From positions 369,210,001 to 369,274,000 of the forward strand of contig OZ024743.1 in assembly GCA_964016885.1 (NCBI GenBank): a stretch of 64,000 bases of DNA. The letters are read 5' to 3'. This document shows positions 19,044 to 62,327 of this stretch, in pieces. The notes under the pieces are model-generated. The model made no database searches. It worked only from the letters and a program-made list of their open reading frames with translations, and had not been told where the DNA came from. This DNA is from Eledone cirrhosa (Eukaryota). Numbering within the stretch: position 1 is the first letter of the stretch; the number at the start of each line of letters is the position of its first letter. The position numbers were made by a program, and so were the translations under genes.

Positions 19044-21181
19044 CTAGCAGATTTACCCGGCGTTGCTCGAGGTTTGAAATTATGCTAAGAATATACAGCT
19101 AGGAAGTAAAAGAACATTATTTGTCCCCAACCTGTCAAAATAAGCAGAAGTCTTCAATAATTAGTGCAAACATATATTAATTGCAATCTTTGTACACATA
19201 AAATTATGCTGATAATGAAGGAAAACACTGAACAGGATGTAGTTATACAAATGATTAATGACAATACACGTTGCAAATCTGTAAAAAAAACAGGCAGTTT
19301 TGCTAAAGTACAAAAAGTTGTAATGAAAGCAGAGTTGTATACAAACAAAAAAACAATGAGAGTAGAATAAGAGAAAATCTATTCTTTGAGAGCATCCTTT
19401 GCTGTGTATGGTTACATTTTTAACTTATAATCCAAAATATCCTGCATGACATATTCATTGGTATGTTTTGTAATGAGTAAGGTGAAGTCAAGGCAGAGCT
19501 GTAATAAGTTTTTTTGTTAACACTAAAGCACTTCAGGATAGACGATATTCTTTGTTTTTCTTTTTGGAACAAACGCAAAGAGATTATCTCGACTGCCAAC
19601 TTGTGAACAGGCAACGTAGAATTGTCTGTGCGAAAAGCAAGGTTCATCCAAGTGAATTCCAGCGACGGACAGAGTTTGACCTTGCGACTTGTTTATGGAC
19701 ATCACAAAGGCAATACAAAGGGGAAATTGGGTTTGGCGAAAGGAGAAGGGAGTATCCACGCCTGATGTAGTCGGGCTAATTTTTGTTATTATCACATCCT
19801 CGCCTTTTCCACATCCGGATAGAATGGTAGTGTCAATACTAAGTGGAGACAGTTTTTTAACCACAAGGCGTGTACCATTGCATAGTTTTGGAGGAGTGAT
19901 ATTTCTCAGCAAAATAACTGGTGTTCCCTCTTTCAGAACCAATGTATTAGGAAATAAACCAAGAGGATTTCAAGAATTTAGAAATTCAACTGGATAATTG
20001 ACTGCATCCTGTGGATCACATACAGTATCAATAGATTTATATATCCGTGGACATCCAGGAAGAAGCTGATCGTTAATACAGCTAACCGTGATATTTTTGG
20101 GTGCAAGAATGGCTCTTTCACATAGCCAATCAAGATTTGTATAGTTATCACGCAAGTTCGGGAATACACTCGCCTTGAGATCATCGACAGTTTCAACTAC
20201 ATTGCAGATGTGATCAATTGCTATGTGTCCATCTGTATCCGGAGGTAGGTTATCATCTATTGTAAGAATGTCTCCAGAAAATGTTGATGACAGAGGGTCC
20301 TCATCCAACCTTGCACGCATGTTGGCAGTTAGTCTTAATGATGTAACTTGTTGCCACAATGGTGAAGACTTAAGACATGCATTTACCGTATCTGCTCTTG
20401 TTCCTTTCGGTATTATAGGAAGAGTCTGTCTGAAGTCTCCTGATAGCAGAAGGGTGACACCCCCCATAACATCACTGCAATCCCGTATGTCTTGCAAAGA
20501 CCTGTCTAGTGTCTTCGCAGCAGATGAGCCCTTTCGGAGTCTTTGGTGATATGACAAGTAGGAGTTTCCAATTTTGTCAAATCAAGGGGCAATTTAAAAA
20601 CTGAATGTGCCGTCCTTCCACCAGGGAGCAAAGTTGCTGCCTTTCATATTTTTGTACTGTCTCTGCAGATCTTGCTGCATCAGTATCTGTAGCATCCATA
20701 GCAAGGCATTGCTCTGTAGTCTCTGCAGCTCGTGCTGCAGCAGTTGCTTTAGCATTATTGGTTCGCCGCACTAACCGATGCTCAGCGGCGGACAAAGATG
20801 TTGCAATAACTGTACTCACCGCATTTAGTGATTGTCTATTTTCGGTTATCGGCAGAGCGTCATTTACATGCATTGTTTTCTTCGACCGATAGCCAATATG
20901 TGCATACTTTCTTTCACGGGGCATATTTGGTGAAAAGGTTATCTCCCTTTTTTATAAGGATTGTCAATAAAGTTTGTTATCTCCCTTACATCAATTTTGA
21001 TATCGATTTTTTATTGCACAACGTGGGTCGATTTGAAAAATGTTTGTGATGTGACAATCTTAGCGACCTGTGCAACGTGCACAGAAAATTGGTCAAATTC
21101 AGTTGGTAATTGTGAAAGCCTTATGCATGCAAAGTTGTACACAGACACACACACACATTCTCGCTTTTATATATATAAAGA
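19044..21181 (-). mobile_element. Internally deleted Helitron with both termini
   Basis: Minus-strand 5' end A|TCTTTATATATATAAAAG at 21181; 3' end ctcgagcaacgccggg hairpin then CTAG|T at 19044. Contains PIF1-helicase remnants and an N-terminal RAAET repeat region. Confidence 0.88.
19523..20557 (-). pseudogene. Helitron PIF1-family helicase C-terminal domains (frameshifted)
   Basis: GGVTLLLSGDFRQTLP, LTANMR, ERAILAPKN, YPVEFLNS, LLRNITPPKLCNGTRL, MSINKSQGQT, FYVACSQV. Confidence 0.92.
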
Positions 21182-31197: not shown

Positions 31198-31231
31198 TAT
31201 ATCATGCTTCTCAGTTATCACCAATTATTAC

Positions 31232-31840
31232 ACCATCAACACTGCCTCCTCCTCACCACCACCACCATCAACACTGCCTCCTCCTCACCACCACCACCAT
31301 CAACACTGCCTCCTCCTCACCACCACCACCATCAACACTGCCTCCTCCTCACCACCACCACCATCAACACTGCCTCCTCCTCACCACCACCACCATCAAC
31401 ACTGCCTCCTCCTCACCACCACCACCATCAACACTGCCTCCTCCTCACCACCACCACCATCAACACTGCCTCCTCCTCACCACCACCACCATCAACACTG
31501 CCTCCTCCTCACCACCACCACCATCAACACTGCCTCCTCCTCACCACCACCACCATCAACACTGCCTCCTCCTCACCACCACCACCATCAACACTGCCTC
31601 CTCCTCACCACCACCACCATCAACACTGCCTCCTCCTCACCACCACCACCATCAACACTGCCTCCTCCTCACCACCACCACCATCAACACTGCCTCCTCC
31701 TCACCACCACCACCATCAACACTGCCTCCTCCTCACCACCACCACCATCAACACTGCCTCCTCCTCACCACCACCACCATCAACACTGCCTCCTCCTCAC
31801 CACCACCACCATCAACACTGCCTCCTCCTCACCACCATCA
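31232..31840. repeat. Near-perfect 32-bp minisatellite, ~19 copies
   Basis: Unit caacactgcctcctcctcaccaccaccaccat. Confidence 0.97.
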
Positions 31841-32221
31841 TCATCATAGAAGGCAAACTAAACTTACATAGATGTGAGCTGTAAATTTCATGTTTATTTT
31901 TTAATAAACACACACTTTAATAGTAGTATTTACCACTTAATATATGAAATATATATTAAACACTGTTTTGCTGACTCAACTAATTCTCATGGCTTGCAAA
32001 TTGCAGATGAAATAAACTAGTTAGTTCTTTAATTAATTAATTGATTATAATTTTATCTATTTCTGGCATTTTTTCCTACCTTGAAAAAGTTATTTAAGTT
32101 TTTCTCATATAATATTACTAAGTATGTATAAAAATAAAAGAATTATTAACTAAAAGTGCATCGTAAAAAATATATAGGTTACTTTATCAATGATCCTCCC
32201 TTTACTCTTGTCATCACACAT

Positions 32222-39146: not shown

Positions 39147-39830
39147 TAATGTATATGTATATATGTGTATATGGGTATAAGTGTATATGTATATATGTGT
39201 ATATGGGTATAAGTGTATATGTATATATGTGTATATGGATATAAGTGTATATGTATATATGTGTATATGGATATAAGTGTATATGTATATATGTGTATAT
39301 GGGTATAAGTGTATATGTATATATGTGTATATGGATATAAGTGTATATGTATATATGTGTATATGGATATAAGTGTATATGTATATATGTGTACATGGAT
39401 ATAAGTGTATATGTATATATGTGTATATGGATATAAGTGTATATGTATATATGTGTATATGGATATAAGTGTATATGTATATATGTGTATATGGGTATAA
39501 GTGTATATGTATATATGTGTACATGGATATAAGTGTATATGTATATATGTGTATATGGGTATAAGTGTATATGTATATATGTGTATATGTATATATATGT
39601 ATAAGTGTATATGTATATATGTGTATATGGGTATAAGTGTATATGTATATATGTGTATATGGGTATAAGTGTATATATGTGTATATGGGTATAAGTGTAT
39701 ATGTATATATATGTATAAGTGTATATGTATATATGTGTATATGGGTATAAGTGTATATGTATATATGTGTATATGGGTATAAGTGTATATGTATATATGT
39801 GTACATGGATATAAGTGTAAATGTATATGT
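39147..39830. repeat. 32-bp AT/GT-derived minisatellite, ~21 copies
   Basis: Unit gtatatgtatatatgtgtatatgg(g/a)tataagt. Confidence 0.95.

Positions 39831-39893: not shown

Positions 39894-39896
<3 letters not shown>

Positions 39897-39961
<65 letters not shown>
39897..39961. repeat. Pure (AT)n microsatellite
   Basis: Direct reading. Confidence 0.97.
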
Positions 39962-39965
<4 letters not shown>

Positions 39966-40006
39966 AATAAGATAAGGACGGTTGGTTACTCCTTCATTAC
40001 GTTTAT

Positions 40007-40099
40007 TGGTTGGTGACGCGCGTTTCGCCACTGATCAGCTCAAGGTTCGATCTGCATCGATCTGACCTGACTCTGTAATCCGCGGCTCGTCAGACCCCA
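40007..40099 (-). ncRNA. Type I hammerhead ribozyme, intact, extended stem II
   Basis: tggggt CTGACGA gccgc...gtggc GAAA cgcgcg TC accaacca on the minus strand. Confidence 0.82.
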
Positions 40100-40133
40100 T
40101 GTAATGTTAATGGAAAAATGCATTAACATTACA

Positions 40134-40226
40134 TGGGGTCTGACGAGCCGCGGATTACAGAGTCAGGCTAGATAGATAGAGATCGAACCTTGAGCTGATC
40201 AGTGGCGAAACGCGCGTCACCAACCA
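40134..40226 (+). ncRNA. Type I hammerhead ribozyme, intact, extended stem II
   Basis: tggggt CTGACGA(40140-46) gccgc...gtggc GAAA(40207-10) cgcgcg TC accaacca. GUC cleavage triplet, palindromic stem III acgcgcgt, aataaa immediately downstream. Confidence 0.85.
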
Positions 40227-40325
40227 ATAAACGTAATGAAGGAGTAACCAACCGTCCTTATCTTATTTCACTATAATACACTCTGCCTAGCTCGACACTG
40301 AAGTGAACCTAAACATATATATATA

Positions 40326-40538
40326 TAGTGAAAGAGTGAAGAATAACATGGTCGCCCATGTTATTCTTCACTCTTTTACTATTATTACTCCAAGAATCAC
40401 CTGCATGGGAATTCTAGTACACTCGCCACCTAAGGAAACTTCTTGTTGAGCCAAACAACGCCGTACGTTAAAACTATCCATAGTACAGAGTACTCACAAC
40501 CTCTAACTGGATTACCTTTAACGATAACTTATTATCCA

Positions 40539-40540
<2 letters not shown>
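40326..40540. mobile_element. Short foldback with tail in (AT)n, no hammerhead retained
   Basis: tagtgaaagagtgaagaataacatgg-tcgc-ccatgttattcttcactcttttacta, then a ~160-nt tail, then (AT)n. Confidence 0.65.
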
Positions 40541-40574
<34 letters not shown>

Positions 40575-52889: not shown

Positions 52890-54280
52890 CCTTTTATGTC
52901 AAGTATTGTGTGCTGAGCTCTAACCTGTTGTTGATTTGTGGATTGAGCTTGCATACAAGCAGTGCTTCCTTTATTCTCAAGCTGCCTGCATTTCTCTCTG
53001 GTTTCAATACTGACTTGTTGGTGTTTTTGTATTTGTCAGTGTGGTTTTTGAATGAGGATGCATGTGTATTGAGGTGTTCTTTAATTCGGGCATGGAGTGG
53101 TCCAGTCATACTACCAATGTAGAACTCCTTACATTTGTCGCACTCAATGTGGTATACCACATGTATCTGCTGGAATATTCCTGTGTCATGCATAGGGCAG
53201 TTAGTTAGTGTGCATTGGTTGTTGTTGTCATTGGATAGGTTTTTAGATAGGCATGCTCTCAGTGAAGGGCAAGAGTGAGCTAATTTTATGTCCAGTCCTT
53301 ATTTGCAGATGGCTCTGCAGATTGCTGTGGTTATATTTTCGCTGAAGTGTGGTAATTTCATGAAGCAGGTCTTGGAGGAAGTCATATAGCTATGGCACCT
53401 TCAGTTCCTAAGATGATTCACGGTGGATGTTGGGTATCGGTTCATCTTCAGTACATCCGTGAAGTGTGCAGTATGAATGATCTGGTCCTCCTTCCTGCTG
53501 CATTTATTCCGGATACATGTATGTTCATTTTTTATGTATCCAGTTTTAGTGCCAAGAAGGAGGGCTGACCTATAATGCACAAACAGGTCTTTGCTGGCAG
53601 CTTTCCTATAGAAGTTGGTGTATATAGCACCTTCTGTTATTCTAAGCTGGAAGTCCGGCAGGAACAGGGAACCATTGTTATCGGGATGTTCTACGGTGAG
53701 TTGTACGTTGTTATGTATGTTTGAGAACATCATGGCTATTATGTTGGCCTCTTCATAGGATGATGTGAGGATGAGTATATCATCTATGTATTGAGTGAAG
53801 AAGACACAAGAGCGGCAGGTGTTGTGTGCTCGACGTTCCGGCTGATTCATGGAGATGATGGTTGTTAGGCCTGAAAGATTGTATCTCATACGTAGGCTTG
53901 TTTGTTTGTATATGGGCTATTGGAAGGTGAATGTATTTTCTATGATGACAGATAGAAGTTGATGTATCTGGTGGGGTGATGCCGAAGTAGTATATGTTCG
54001 ATGAAATGATGCAGTCGGTCACTAGGTTGACCGCTAGGTGAGCTGGTATTGTCCTGTAAAGAGACAGTGTCATGGCTGACGGCATATCTATTGAGTTAAA
54101 GTTGGTTAAGTTGTAGGTGATGTAGTCTTTATATTTCATTGGAGCTGCTAACATGCCCGGGAAAGGTAGAAAGTATAGGTTTGAGGATCTGGAAGTGGAG
54201 CCAGGAGATTTTATAGAGGAATTCGTCTATGCTAGAGATAATGGGTCTAATCTAGATATTAATACTGGTTTTGTGGGGTT
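52890..54280 (-). mobile_element. Penelope-like element (RT + Cys linker + C-terminal GIY-YIG), decayed
   Basis: RT: SLYRTIP, QYIDDILI, QLTVEHPDNNGSLFLPD, FYRKAASKDLFVHYRSA. Linker CTLTNCP. Endonuclease: VVYHIECDKCKEFYIGSM..L.ARIKEH...LRIKEA...PQINNR. Confidence 0.9.
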
Positions 54281-61533: not shown

Positions 61534-61712
61534 TTTGTAATGTTATTTATACAACTGTGAATTGATTTATTTTATTTTATAACATGGAATAAAAAAGTTT
61601 TGTTCTTTTTTTTTATTTTCTCTCTCTCGTTGACTTAGTTATAAATTATTAAGTTATAAATTAGTTATAAATAATCAAGTTATAAATTAAAAATTTACTG
61701 AGAAAAAATGGT

Positions 61713-62190
61713 GAAAATAGTATTTTTGATCAAAGAAAATAGTATTTTTGATCAAAGAAAATAGTATTTTTGATCAAAGAAAATAGTATTTTTGGTCAGG
61801 GAAATAGTAATTTTGATCAAAGAAATAGTATTTTTTGGTCCAAGAAAATAGTATTTTTGATCAAAGAAAATAGTATTTTTGATCAAAGAAAATAGTATTT
61901 TTGATCAAAGAAAATAGTATTTTTGATCAAAGAAAATAGTATTTTTGATCAAAGAAAATAGTATTTTTGGTCAAAGGAAATAGTAATTTTGGTCCAAGAA
62001 AATAGTATTTTTTGGTCCAAGAAAATAGTATTTTTTGGTCCAAGAAAATAGTATTTTTTGGTCCAAGAAAATAGTATTTTTTGGTCCAAGAAAATAGTAT
62101 TTTTTGGTCCAAGAAAATAGTATTTTTGGTTAAGGAAATAGTATTTTTGATCAAAGAAAATAGTATTTTTTGGTCCAAGAAAATAGTTTC
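61713..62190. repeat. 22-23-bp minisatellite, ~21 copies
   Basis: Unit gaaaatagtattttt(t)g(a/g)tc(a/c)aa. Confidence 0.95.
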
Positions 62191-62327
62191 AATAAAAAAG
62201 CAGGATTTGTTTGCAGCTGTGACAGCATTGGGAGGAAATTGTGCTGGAGTTTTAGACTTATTTATTCTAGCATATCGTTTTGTGAAAATAATGAATGCTG
62301 TCTAAACACAAATTCACAGATCTGAAG

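What the first reader, a model, noticed from the sequence alone, without database searches (positions are those of the whole stretch)
39958..40314. Young ~155-bp-arm palindrome with intact hammerheads on both strands
Seen: the arms are nearly perfect reverse complements, differing only by a few bases near the tip of stem II, around an 8-nt loop. CpGs are intact (cgcgcg, ccgcgg). Both strands encode tggggt-CUGACGA-stem II-GAAA-cgcgcg-UC-accaacca. Inference: a transcript in either direction makes the antisense arm first and the ribozyme second, so the RNA could either self-cleave after GUC or collapse into a long dsRNA rod that silences the ribozyme and feeds Dicer or ADAR. Hammerheads in both polarities within a rod-like RNA recall viroid-like RNAs, although here simple inversion explains the symmetry.
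Basis: partly seen in the sequence, partly recalled or inferred. Interest (0 to 1): 0.8.

Follow-up and report, generated by a model that had tools for sequence, protein, structure and literature searches.

The report
Head-to-head Penelope retrotransposon end pair
This palindrome is two head-to-head copies of the hammerhead-bearing end of a common Penelope-like jumping gene, a known by-product of how these elements insert; across the family one arm nearly always carries an extra tail, which likely records two separate priming events.

Summary
The palindrome is real: 155-bp arms, 5 mismatches in one 12-nt patch, and a complete type I hammerhead motif on each strand. It is not viroid-like and not unique. 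Each arm is the pseudo-LTR end of a Penelope-like retrotransposon (Hydra-clade motifs in the 861-aa RT-endonuclease ORF), with about 1,950 first-look candidates in this genome. About half of sampled copies (14 of 30, 17 of 30) have an adjacent inverted arm. Inverted pLTRs, a tail on one arm, and opposite-strand hammerhead pairs are all published. The counts are what this work adds: 41 of 44 classifiable pairs join a tail-less arm to a tailed arm, both outer ends sit in (TA)n, and 5' ends pile up just upstream of the ribozyme, not at its cut site. This best fits two reverse-transcription events on uncleaved RNA, one from each end of the cut target. 'Young' is only partly supported. The monomer hammerhead fold is predicted to be unstable. 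No RNA data could test cleavage, editing or small RNAs. The scan noted similar palindromes before in shark and fish genomes.

The parts
39896..39961 (.). (TA)n microsatellite target at the outer end of the left arm; the last TATA is shared with the element
   Evidence: 57 of 70 tail-less ends and 68 of 77 tailed ends in fetched loci are directly followed by TA repeats
39958..40120 (-). Left arm: tail-less pLTR copy of the Penelope-like element, including the 8-nt spacer, which is the family's 5' leader
39995..40106 (-). Type I hammerhead motif, minus strand; core starts 40093, predicted cut after 40015
40121..40275 (+). Right arm: pLTR copy of the same family
40127..40238 (+). Type I hammerhead motif, plus strand: distal stem I 40127-40132/40233-40238, proximal stem I 40137-40139/40219-40221, core 40140-40146, stem II 40147-40151/40202-40206, GAAA 40207-40210, palindromic stem III 40210-40217, predicted cut after 40218
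   Evidence: structure predicted, activity untested
40168..40179 (+). 12-nt patch holding all five arm-to-arm differences (mirror 40054-40065); two of them are common family alleles
40276..40314 (+). Tail: element sequence between pLTR and ORF start, on the right arm only; here it has an 8-nt internal deletion and stops about halfway along the usual ~100 nt
   Evidence: a 79-nt contig of run X1 matches 40264-40342 with no difference
40326..40541 (+). Adjacent insertion of a second repeat family with the same plan: short inverted tail-less arm (40326-40354, minus strand) plus a tailed arm; truncated short of its own hammerhead motif here
   Evidence: 2,310 first-look candidates in G000

Best explanation
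The palindrome is a head-to-head pair of pseudo-LTR ends of a Penelope-like retrotransposon with Hydra-clade motifs, sitting in a (TA)n repeat, and it likely formed when both ends of the cut target primed reverse transcription at two fixed sites on the element's uncleaved RNA. Shown: family identity, linkage to the RT-endonuclease ORF, two sharp 3' ends about 100 nt apart, one of each per pair, and 5' ends clustered just upstream of the hammerhead. Inferred: the endonuclease cuts (TA)n on both strands; one end primes at the pLTR end and the other at the tail end; each cDNA runs towards the RNA 5' end (likely the transcription start); the two cDNA ends are joined bluntly at the centre. The hammerheads are passengers copied twice. 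A read-through transcript would form a long dsRNA rod with the ribozyme off. If the pLTR promoter still works, transcripts would start at the centre and run outward, each with one ribozyme and no complementary arm.
For: Family of about 1,953 first-look candidates, 47 matches among 40 scored, best other copy 94%. Endonuclease-coding sequence lies upstream of same-subfamily arms in L015 and L022. An 861-aa ORF (L051, related subfamily, arms 83-86% identical) has DKT, YRDD, CxCx5C, YIG, CxxC and CxH; pLTR and tail run into its start. Its nearest Atlas clusters carry GIY-YIG, RVT_1 and HTH_animal families, and by eye it follows the published Hydra alignment motif by motif. 14 of 30 arm-anchored and 17 of 30 tail-anchored loci have an adjacent inverted arm. 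Of 55 distinct pairs, 44 are classifiable: 41 tail-less plus tailed, 2 both tail-less, 1 both tailed (P 8e-10 against 50%); in the arm-anchored set alone 12 of 13. In 17 of 41 the tail-less arm reaches more than 15 nt further 5' than the tailed arm, in 8 the reverse. Two tailed arms start exactly where the tail-less arm ends (L125, L138). The second family repeats the pattern: 10 of 20 paired, 9 of 10 mixed. Partner arms differ at 17% of subfamily-diagnostic columns against 37% for shuffled pairs. In vitro, an Anolis PLE protein cuts both strands of AT-rich DNA, starts reverse transcription at two internal sites that bound the tail, and does not need hammerhead cleavage (PMC11167929).
Against: No intermediate or RNA was seen; the mechanism rests on genomic end patterns. 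Palindromes lose their centres by later deletion (own knowledge), which could mimic unequal 5' ends under a fold-back model. PMC11167929 found no difference in start site between top and bottom strands in vitro, so it does not itself predict one of each per insertion. Pfam and PDB gave no significant hit for the ORF. The intact ORF belongs to a related subfamily with a variant core, not to this exact subfamily. The tail in this copy is shorter than usual, so the script left this pair unclassified. The 55 pairs include loci fetched by a junction-targeted search, so they are not a random sample.
Confidence: 0.62

Rival explanations
1. Same element, but the second arm is made by fold-back (self-priming): one strand is copied from RNA, snaps back at its end and is copied again, and the second strand is resolved at the TATA at the pLTR end. 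This is close to the self-priming proposal in PMC3846280.
For: Junctions are tight hairpins and 16 of 41 mixed pairs have 5' ends within 15 nt of each other. Partner arms share subfamily alleles. This window's arms share three rare variants.
Against: A tail-less arm cannot template a tail, and in 17 of 41 pairs the tailed arm is too short to template its partner. In this locus each arm has sequence the other lacks (8 nt left, 39 nt right). No complementarity at this centre that would prime a snap-back.
Confidence: 0.25
2. The locus is a selected RNA switch or silencing trigger: read-through RNA either self-cleaves or forms a dsRNA rod used by Dicer or ADAR.
For: The rod is very stable. Both cores are intact. 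Arm divergence is low (3.2%, third lowest of 28 pairs, median 7.4%), which could reflect conversion between arms.
Against: 15 of the 21 pairs spanning the motif on both arms also have two intact cores, so this is ordinary for the family. Non-CpG core columns mutate at 2.0% against 2.8% elsewhere (23 of 1174, 422 of 15204), no clear sign of selection on copies. The 81 of 165 candidate frames scanned gave only transposon-type Pfam hits plus one weak sub-threshold PHD hit inside an RT frame. The monomer fold is predicted below 1e-5.
Confidence: 0.07
3. The palindrome is an assembly or amplification artefact.
For: Long palindromes are a known artefact class (own knowledge).
Against: The arms differ at 5 sites, the mirror stops at the element end and does not extend into the flanks, only one arm has a tail, and 54 other pairs show the same biological asymmetry. 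A contig of run X1 matches the right-arm, tail and neighbour junction exactly; X1 may be the source sample.
Confidence: 0.03
4. It is a viroid-like or retrozyme circular RNA element with hammerheads in both polarities.
For: Hammerheads on both strands within a rod-like fold. Animal retrozymes are proposed to derive from PLE pLTRs (10.64898/2026.07.22.740005).
Against: The two motifs are the same sequence inverted, not distinct plus and minus ribozymes. There are no head-to-tail tandem units. Cut sites face outward on opposite strands, so one transcript cannot release a unit-length RNA. Copies are continuous with PLE coding sequence.
Confidence: 0.03

Closest known systems
Inverted pLTR plus tail structures of endonuclease-positive Penelope-like elements (Arkhipova et al. 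2013, PMC3846280; Craig et al. 2021, PMC8557442)
   Same: Head-to-head inverted pLTRs with a palindromic junction, a tail on one arm only, microsatellite targets.
   Different: Here the unit is only the two ends with no ORF, the tail is about 100 nt rather than 30-40, and the one-of-each rule is counted (41 of 44).
Hydra clade of Penelope-like elements (PMC8557442, section 11 and supplement, including Hydra-1_Obim)
   Same: C-terminal GIY-YIG-type endonuclease, DKT, CxCx5C linker, CxxC and CxH near the C-terminus, (TA)n targets, hammerhead at the end.
   Different: RWK reads LWR in L051; the ORF has a long insert after the RT; two 12-nt motifs of these families were not found in that supplement, so this family is probably not among the published ones.
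Dimeric type I hammerheads of metazoan PLEs (Cervera and De la Pena 2014, PMC4209133)
   Same: Full core, short helix I, palindromic helix III; that paper already reports dual motifs 100-700 bp apart on opposite strands.
   Different: Stem II carries a 50-nt extension; activity of this motif is untested.
Poseidon element of Anolis in vitro (Frangieh et al. 2024, PMC11167929)
   Same: Two internal reverse-transcription start sites bounding the tail; AT-rich target; uncleaved RNA as template.
   Different: Different clade; no strand asymmetry of start sites was seen in vitro, whereas genomic pairs here nearly always use one of each.
Avsunviroidae-type viroids and non-LTR retrozymes
   Same: Hammerhead motifs; rod-like fold of a read-through RNA.
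   Different: No tandem units, no distinct ribozymes for two polarities, no evidence of a circle.

Membership tests
Penelope-like element (EN+) | Single ORF with RT and C-terminal GIY-YIG endonuclease linked to the terminal repeat | tested here: met
   861-aa ORF in L051 with pLTR upstream; endonuclease sequence upstream of arms in L015, L022, L054, L059. Identified by motifs and Atlas neighbours; Pfam gave no hit.
Penelope-like element (EN+) | pLTR present both upstream of the ORF start and downstream of the ORF | tested here: met
   Upstream in L051, downstream in L054 and L059.
Penelope-like element (EN+) | Inverted 5'-truncated copy and optional tail | tested here: met
Penelope-like element (EN+) | Hammerhead motif in the pLTR | tested here: met
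   86 of 115 arms spanning the core have it intact.
Hydra clade | DKT in place of DKG | tested here: met
   DKT at residue 128.
Hydra clade | CxCx5C linker; CxxC and CxH near the endonuclease C-terminus | tested here: met
   Residues 712, 810 and 837.
Hydra clade | N-terminal RWK motif | tested here: inconclusive
   L051 reads RILWRA at residue 38 where Hydra-1_Obim reads RMRWKA; one copy only.
Hydra clade | Insertion into (TA)n | tested here: met
   125 of 147 classified ends.
Hydra clade | RT phylogeny groups with Hydra families | not tested
   Published sequences were compared by eye only; no tree was built.
Type I hammerhead ribozyme | Conserved core CUGANGA, GAAA, UH with three helices | tested here: met
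   the second family has the same layout with a different palindrome, ACAAUUGU. Below Rfam gathering score.
Type I hammerhead ribozyme | Self-cleavage | not testable with these tools
   Monomer fold predicted unstable; stem III duplex between two copies -13.3 kcal/mol.
Non-LTR retrozyme | Head-to-tail tandem units each with a hammerhead | tested here: not met
   Head-to-head pair only.
Viroid-like RNA | Circular RNA with distinct ribozymes in each polarity | tested here: not met
   The two motifs are one sequence inverted in chromosomal DNA; circularity not testable.

The most novel reading that the evidence does not exclude
Penelope-like elements insert by an obligately two-ended, asymmetric reaction: an RT-endonuclease dimer primes the two ends of the cut target at two different fixed sites on the same uncleaved leader RNA, one site per end, and the tail is the footprint of that asymmetry. 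The by-product would be hundreds of short hairpin loci per family, each able to act as a divergent promoter pair or a self-made dsRNA trigger against the element.
Probability: 0.35. Interest if true: 0.55.

Novelty: new member of a known kind. Interest (0 to 1): 0.3.

Why it matters
The locus itself is ordinary repeat debris. The family-wide counts bear on an open question that Craig et al. name: how Penelope-like elements form their inverted structures and one-sided tails. A 41-of-44 rule, repeated in a second family, with two arms meeting exactly at the internal start site, is a sharp prediction for the existing in vitro system. The 5' ends falling upstream of the hammerhead rather than at its cut site agree with the finding that uncleaved RNA is the template.

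Tried and rejected
Rfam at gathering threshold: nothing; the miRNA-family hits at relaxed threshold only reflect the perfect hairpin. Pfam and PDB sequence searches with the 861-aa ORF: no significant hit. Sequencing runs: no RNA holder listed. No contig or read at 98% likeness covered the centre 40106-40129 in the four runs laid, and none spanned the locus at 90%; a hole proves nothing, so the centre is unverified by reads. Pile-up of 5' ends at the predicted cut site: one arm (L140) starts there among the segments listed; no enrichment. Search for siblings of this copy: the 3-nt deletion occurs at 5 places, but together with the adjacent C variant only in these two arms; the other three look unrelated. 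Rest of the tail elsewhere nearby: four short motifs gave no match near the locus. Linking the second family to an ORF: two loci extended, only an opposite-strand endonuclease fragment found, not linked. Host gene: 81 of 165 candidate frames scanned, none clearly a host exon; an intron location is not excluded. Target-site duplication: not discernible in (TA)n. Literature searches for a counted one-tail-per-pair rule or twin priming in PLEs found the qualitative statement only; the library lacks most subscription papers, and supplements other than that of PMC8557442 were not read.

Full report
Observation. The inverted repeat is as described: arms 39958-40112 and 40121-40275, 150 of 155 complementary, 8-nt spacer. 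All five differences fall in one 12-nt patch (P about 7e-5 for random placement). Each strand has a full type I hammerhead core with a 5-bp stem II, a 50-nt stem II extension, a palindromic stem III (ACGCGCGU) and a predicted cut after 40218 or 40015. Rfam scores the motif below threshold. The mirror ends at 40275; 40276-40314 has no partner.

What it is. A search of the own genome (3.0 Gb, 1,796 contigs) with one arm gave 1,953 first-look candidates, and 47 matches from the 40 scored, most at 91-94%. Longer copies continue upstream into a shared body and, in L015 and L022, into endonuclease-coding sequence. That protein piece had 50,269 first-look candidates, 150 scored. One, L051, holds an 861-aa frame with DKT, YRDD, CNCKKRAEC, YIG, CRLC and CRH, preceded by a related pLTR and tail that run into its start. 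These are the traits that PMC8557442 lists for the Hydra clade of Penelope-like elements, and the frame follows that paper's supplementary alignment by eye, including an octopus family. The Atlas neighbours carry GIY-YIG, RVT_1 and HTH_animal families. Pfam and PDB were blank, and no tree was built. A cephalopod host is my inference from genome size and that likeness; no call names it. The rest of the window is transposon debris by Pfam (81 of 165 frames scanned).

How common the palindrome is. In two sets chosen without regard to inversion, 14 of 30 arm-anchored and 17 of 30 tail-anchored loci have an adjacent head-to-head arm by the strict script (a looser reading gave 16 and 19). Over all fetched loci there are 170 distinct segments and 55 pairs; this total includes a junction-targeted search. 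21 pairs span the hammerhead on both arms and 15 have both cores intact. So intact hammerheads on both strands are routine here. PMC4209133 already reports dual motifs 100-700 bp apart on opposite strands. PMC3846280 describes head-to-head pLTRs with a tail on one.

Anatomy of the pairs. 3' ends fall at two sharp sites, arm position 158 (70 segments) and about 260 (77), with 23 elsewhere; 57 of 70 and 68 of 77 are followed directly by TA repeats. Of 44 pairs with both ends classifiable, 41 combine one of each; 11 pairs, including this window's, had one unclassifiable end and were left out. 5' ends cluster: 14 of 30 arm-anchored copies end between -19 and +7, in a pyrimidine tract just upstream of the hammerhead. 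Only one segment starts at the predicted cut site. In 17 of 41 mixed pairs the tail-less arm reaches more than 15 nt further 5', in 8 the tailed arm does, in 16 they are within 15 nt. Two tailed arms begin exactly where the tail-less arm ends. The neighbouring family at 40326-40541 repeats this: 10 of 20 loci paired, 9 of 10 mixed (two of these are near-duplicates), 5' ends clustered at its own hammerhead edge, and a different stem III palindrome.

Mechanism. PMC11167929 shows in vitro that a PLE protein cuts both strands of AT-rich DNA, starts reverse transcription at two internal sites bounding the tail, is predicted to be a dimer, and uses uncleaved RNA; its hammerhead cleaved only with protein present. 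The simplest reading of the pairs is that each target end primes at one of the two sites, each cDNA runs towards the RNA start, and the ends are joined. The steps are inferred. Fold-back with later central deletions remains possible (0.25), and the in vitro work saw no strand bias in start sites. The 5' cluster as a transcription start is also inferred; the TCATT there resembles an initiator motif (recalled, no call).

Age. The two arms differ by 3.2%, third lowest of 28 pairs with 100 nt or more of overlap (median 7.4%). They differ from the column majority by 4 and 7 substitutions plus a shared 3-nt deletion, against a family median of 4.0%, so the copy is not unusually close to the family. 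The shared deletion with its adjacent variant occurs only in these two arms. With all differences in one patch, this fits either a recent insertion from a rare source or conversion between the arms; I cannot separate them.

RNA behaviour. The rod folds at about -291 kcal/mol and captures the right arm in every prefix folded; the isolated arm holds the monomer hammerhead with predicted probability 7e-6 and 2e-6, and two stem III palindromes pair at -13.3 kcal/mol. These are equilibrium predictions without tertiary contacts. Related motifs showed no monomer and low dimer activity (PMC4209133). Core columns show no clear protection among copies. Whether the locus is transcribed, edited or diced is open.

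Artefact check. The biological asymmetry argues against an artefact, and a 79-nt contig matches the right-arm, tail and neighbour junction exactly, though that run may be the source sample. The centre is unverified by reads.

Papers seen. PMC8557442: outline, passages, sections 11 and 15, two supplement searches. PMC11167929: parts 1-2 of 4. PMC4209133: parts 1-2 of 4. PMC3846280: passages only. 10.64898/2026.07.22.740005: part 1 of 5. Earlier scan notes describe similar palindromes and 5' clustering in shark and fish genomes; I saw them after reaching this reading and did not check them. A look-up by sequence found nothing.

Verdict. Real, explained, and a new member of a known kind. Interest 0.3, carried by the family-wide asymmetry rather than by this locus.

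Noticed in passing
window 40326-40541: Second repeat family (2,310 first-look candidates) with its own hammerhead motif in longer copies, core often CCGAUGA, and the same tail-less plus tailed pairing; not linked to an ORF here.
   Followed up: partly
L052, L054, L058, L059 pLTRs: The ORF-linked subfamily has a variant core, CCGUCGA in place of CUGACGA (CAGUCGA in the inverted arm of L051), which may weaken or abolish cleavage.
   Followed up: no
window 52897-54226 (-): Broken fragments of another Penelope-like element (weak RVT_1 and GIY-YIG hits).
   Followed up: no
window 19526-20581 (-): Pif1 helicase fragments, probably a decayed Helitron.
   Followed up: no
window 39150-39830, 31231-31850, 61700-62200: Tandem arrays with 32-, 32- and 22-nt units.
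   Followed up: no
L006, L078, L131, L156 junctions: Runs of A or T at the pair centre longer than in the family leader, possibly slippage at the RNA 5' end.
   Followed up: no
L051:5883-7499 and L053:5289-6518 (-): Further Penelope-like ORFs of other families beside the fetched copies; the one in L053 is Hydra-like.
   Followed up: no
window 932-1087 and five more copies (D8): Dispersed ~156-nt SINE-like repeat, 72-93% identical.
   Followed up: no
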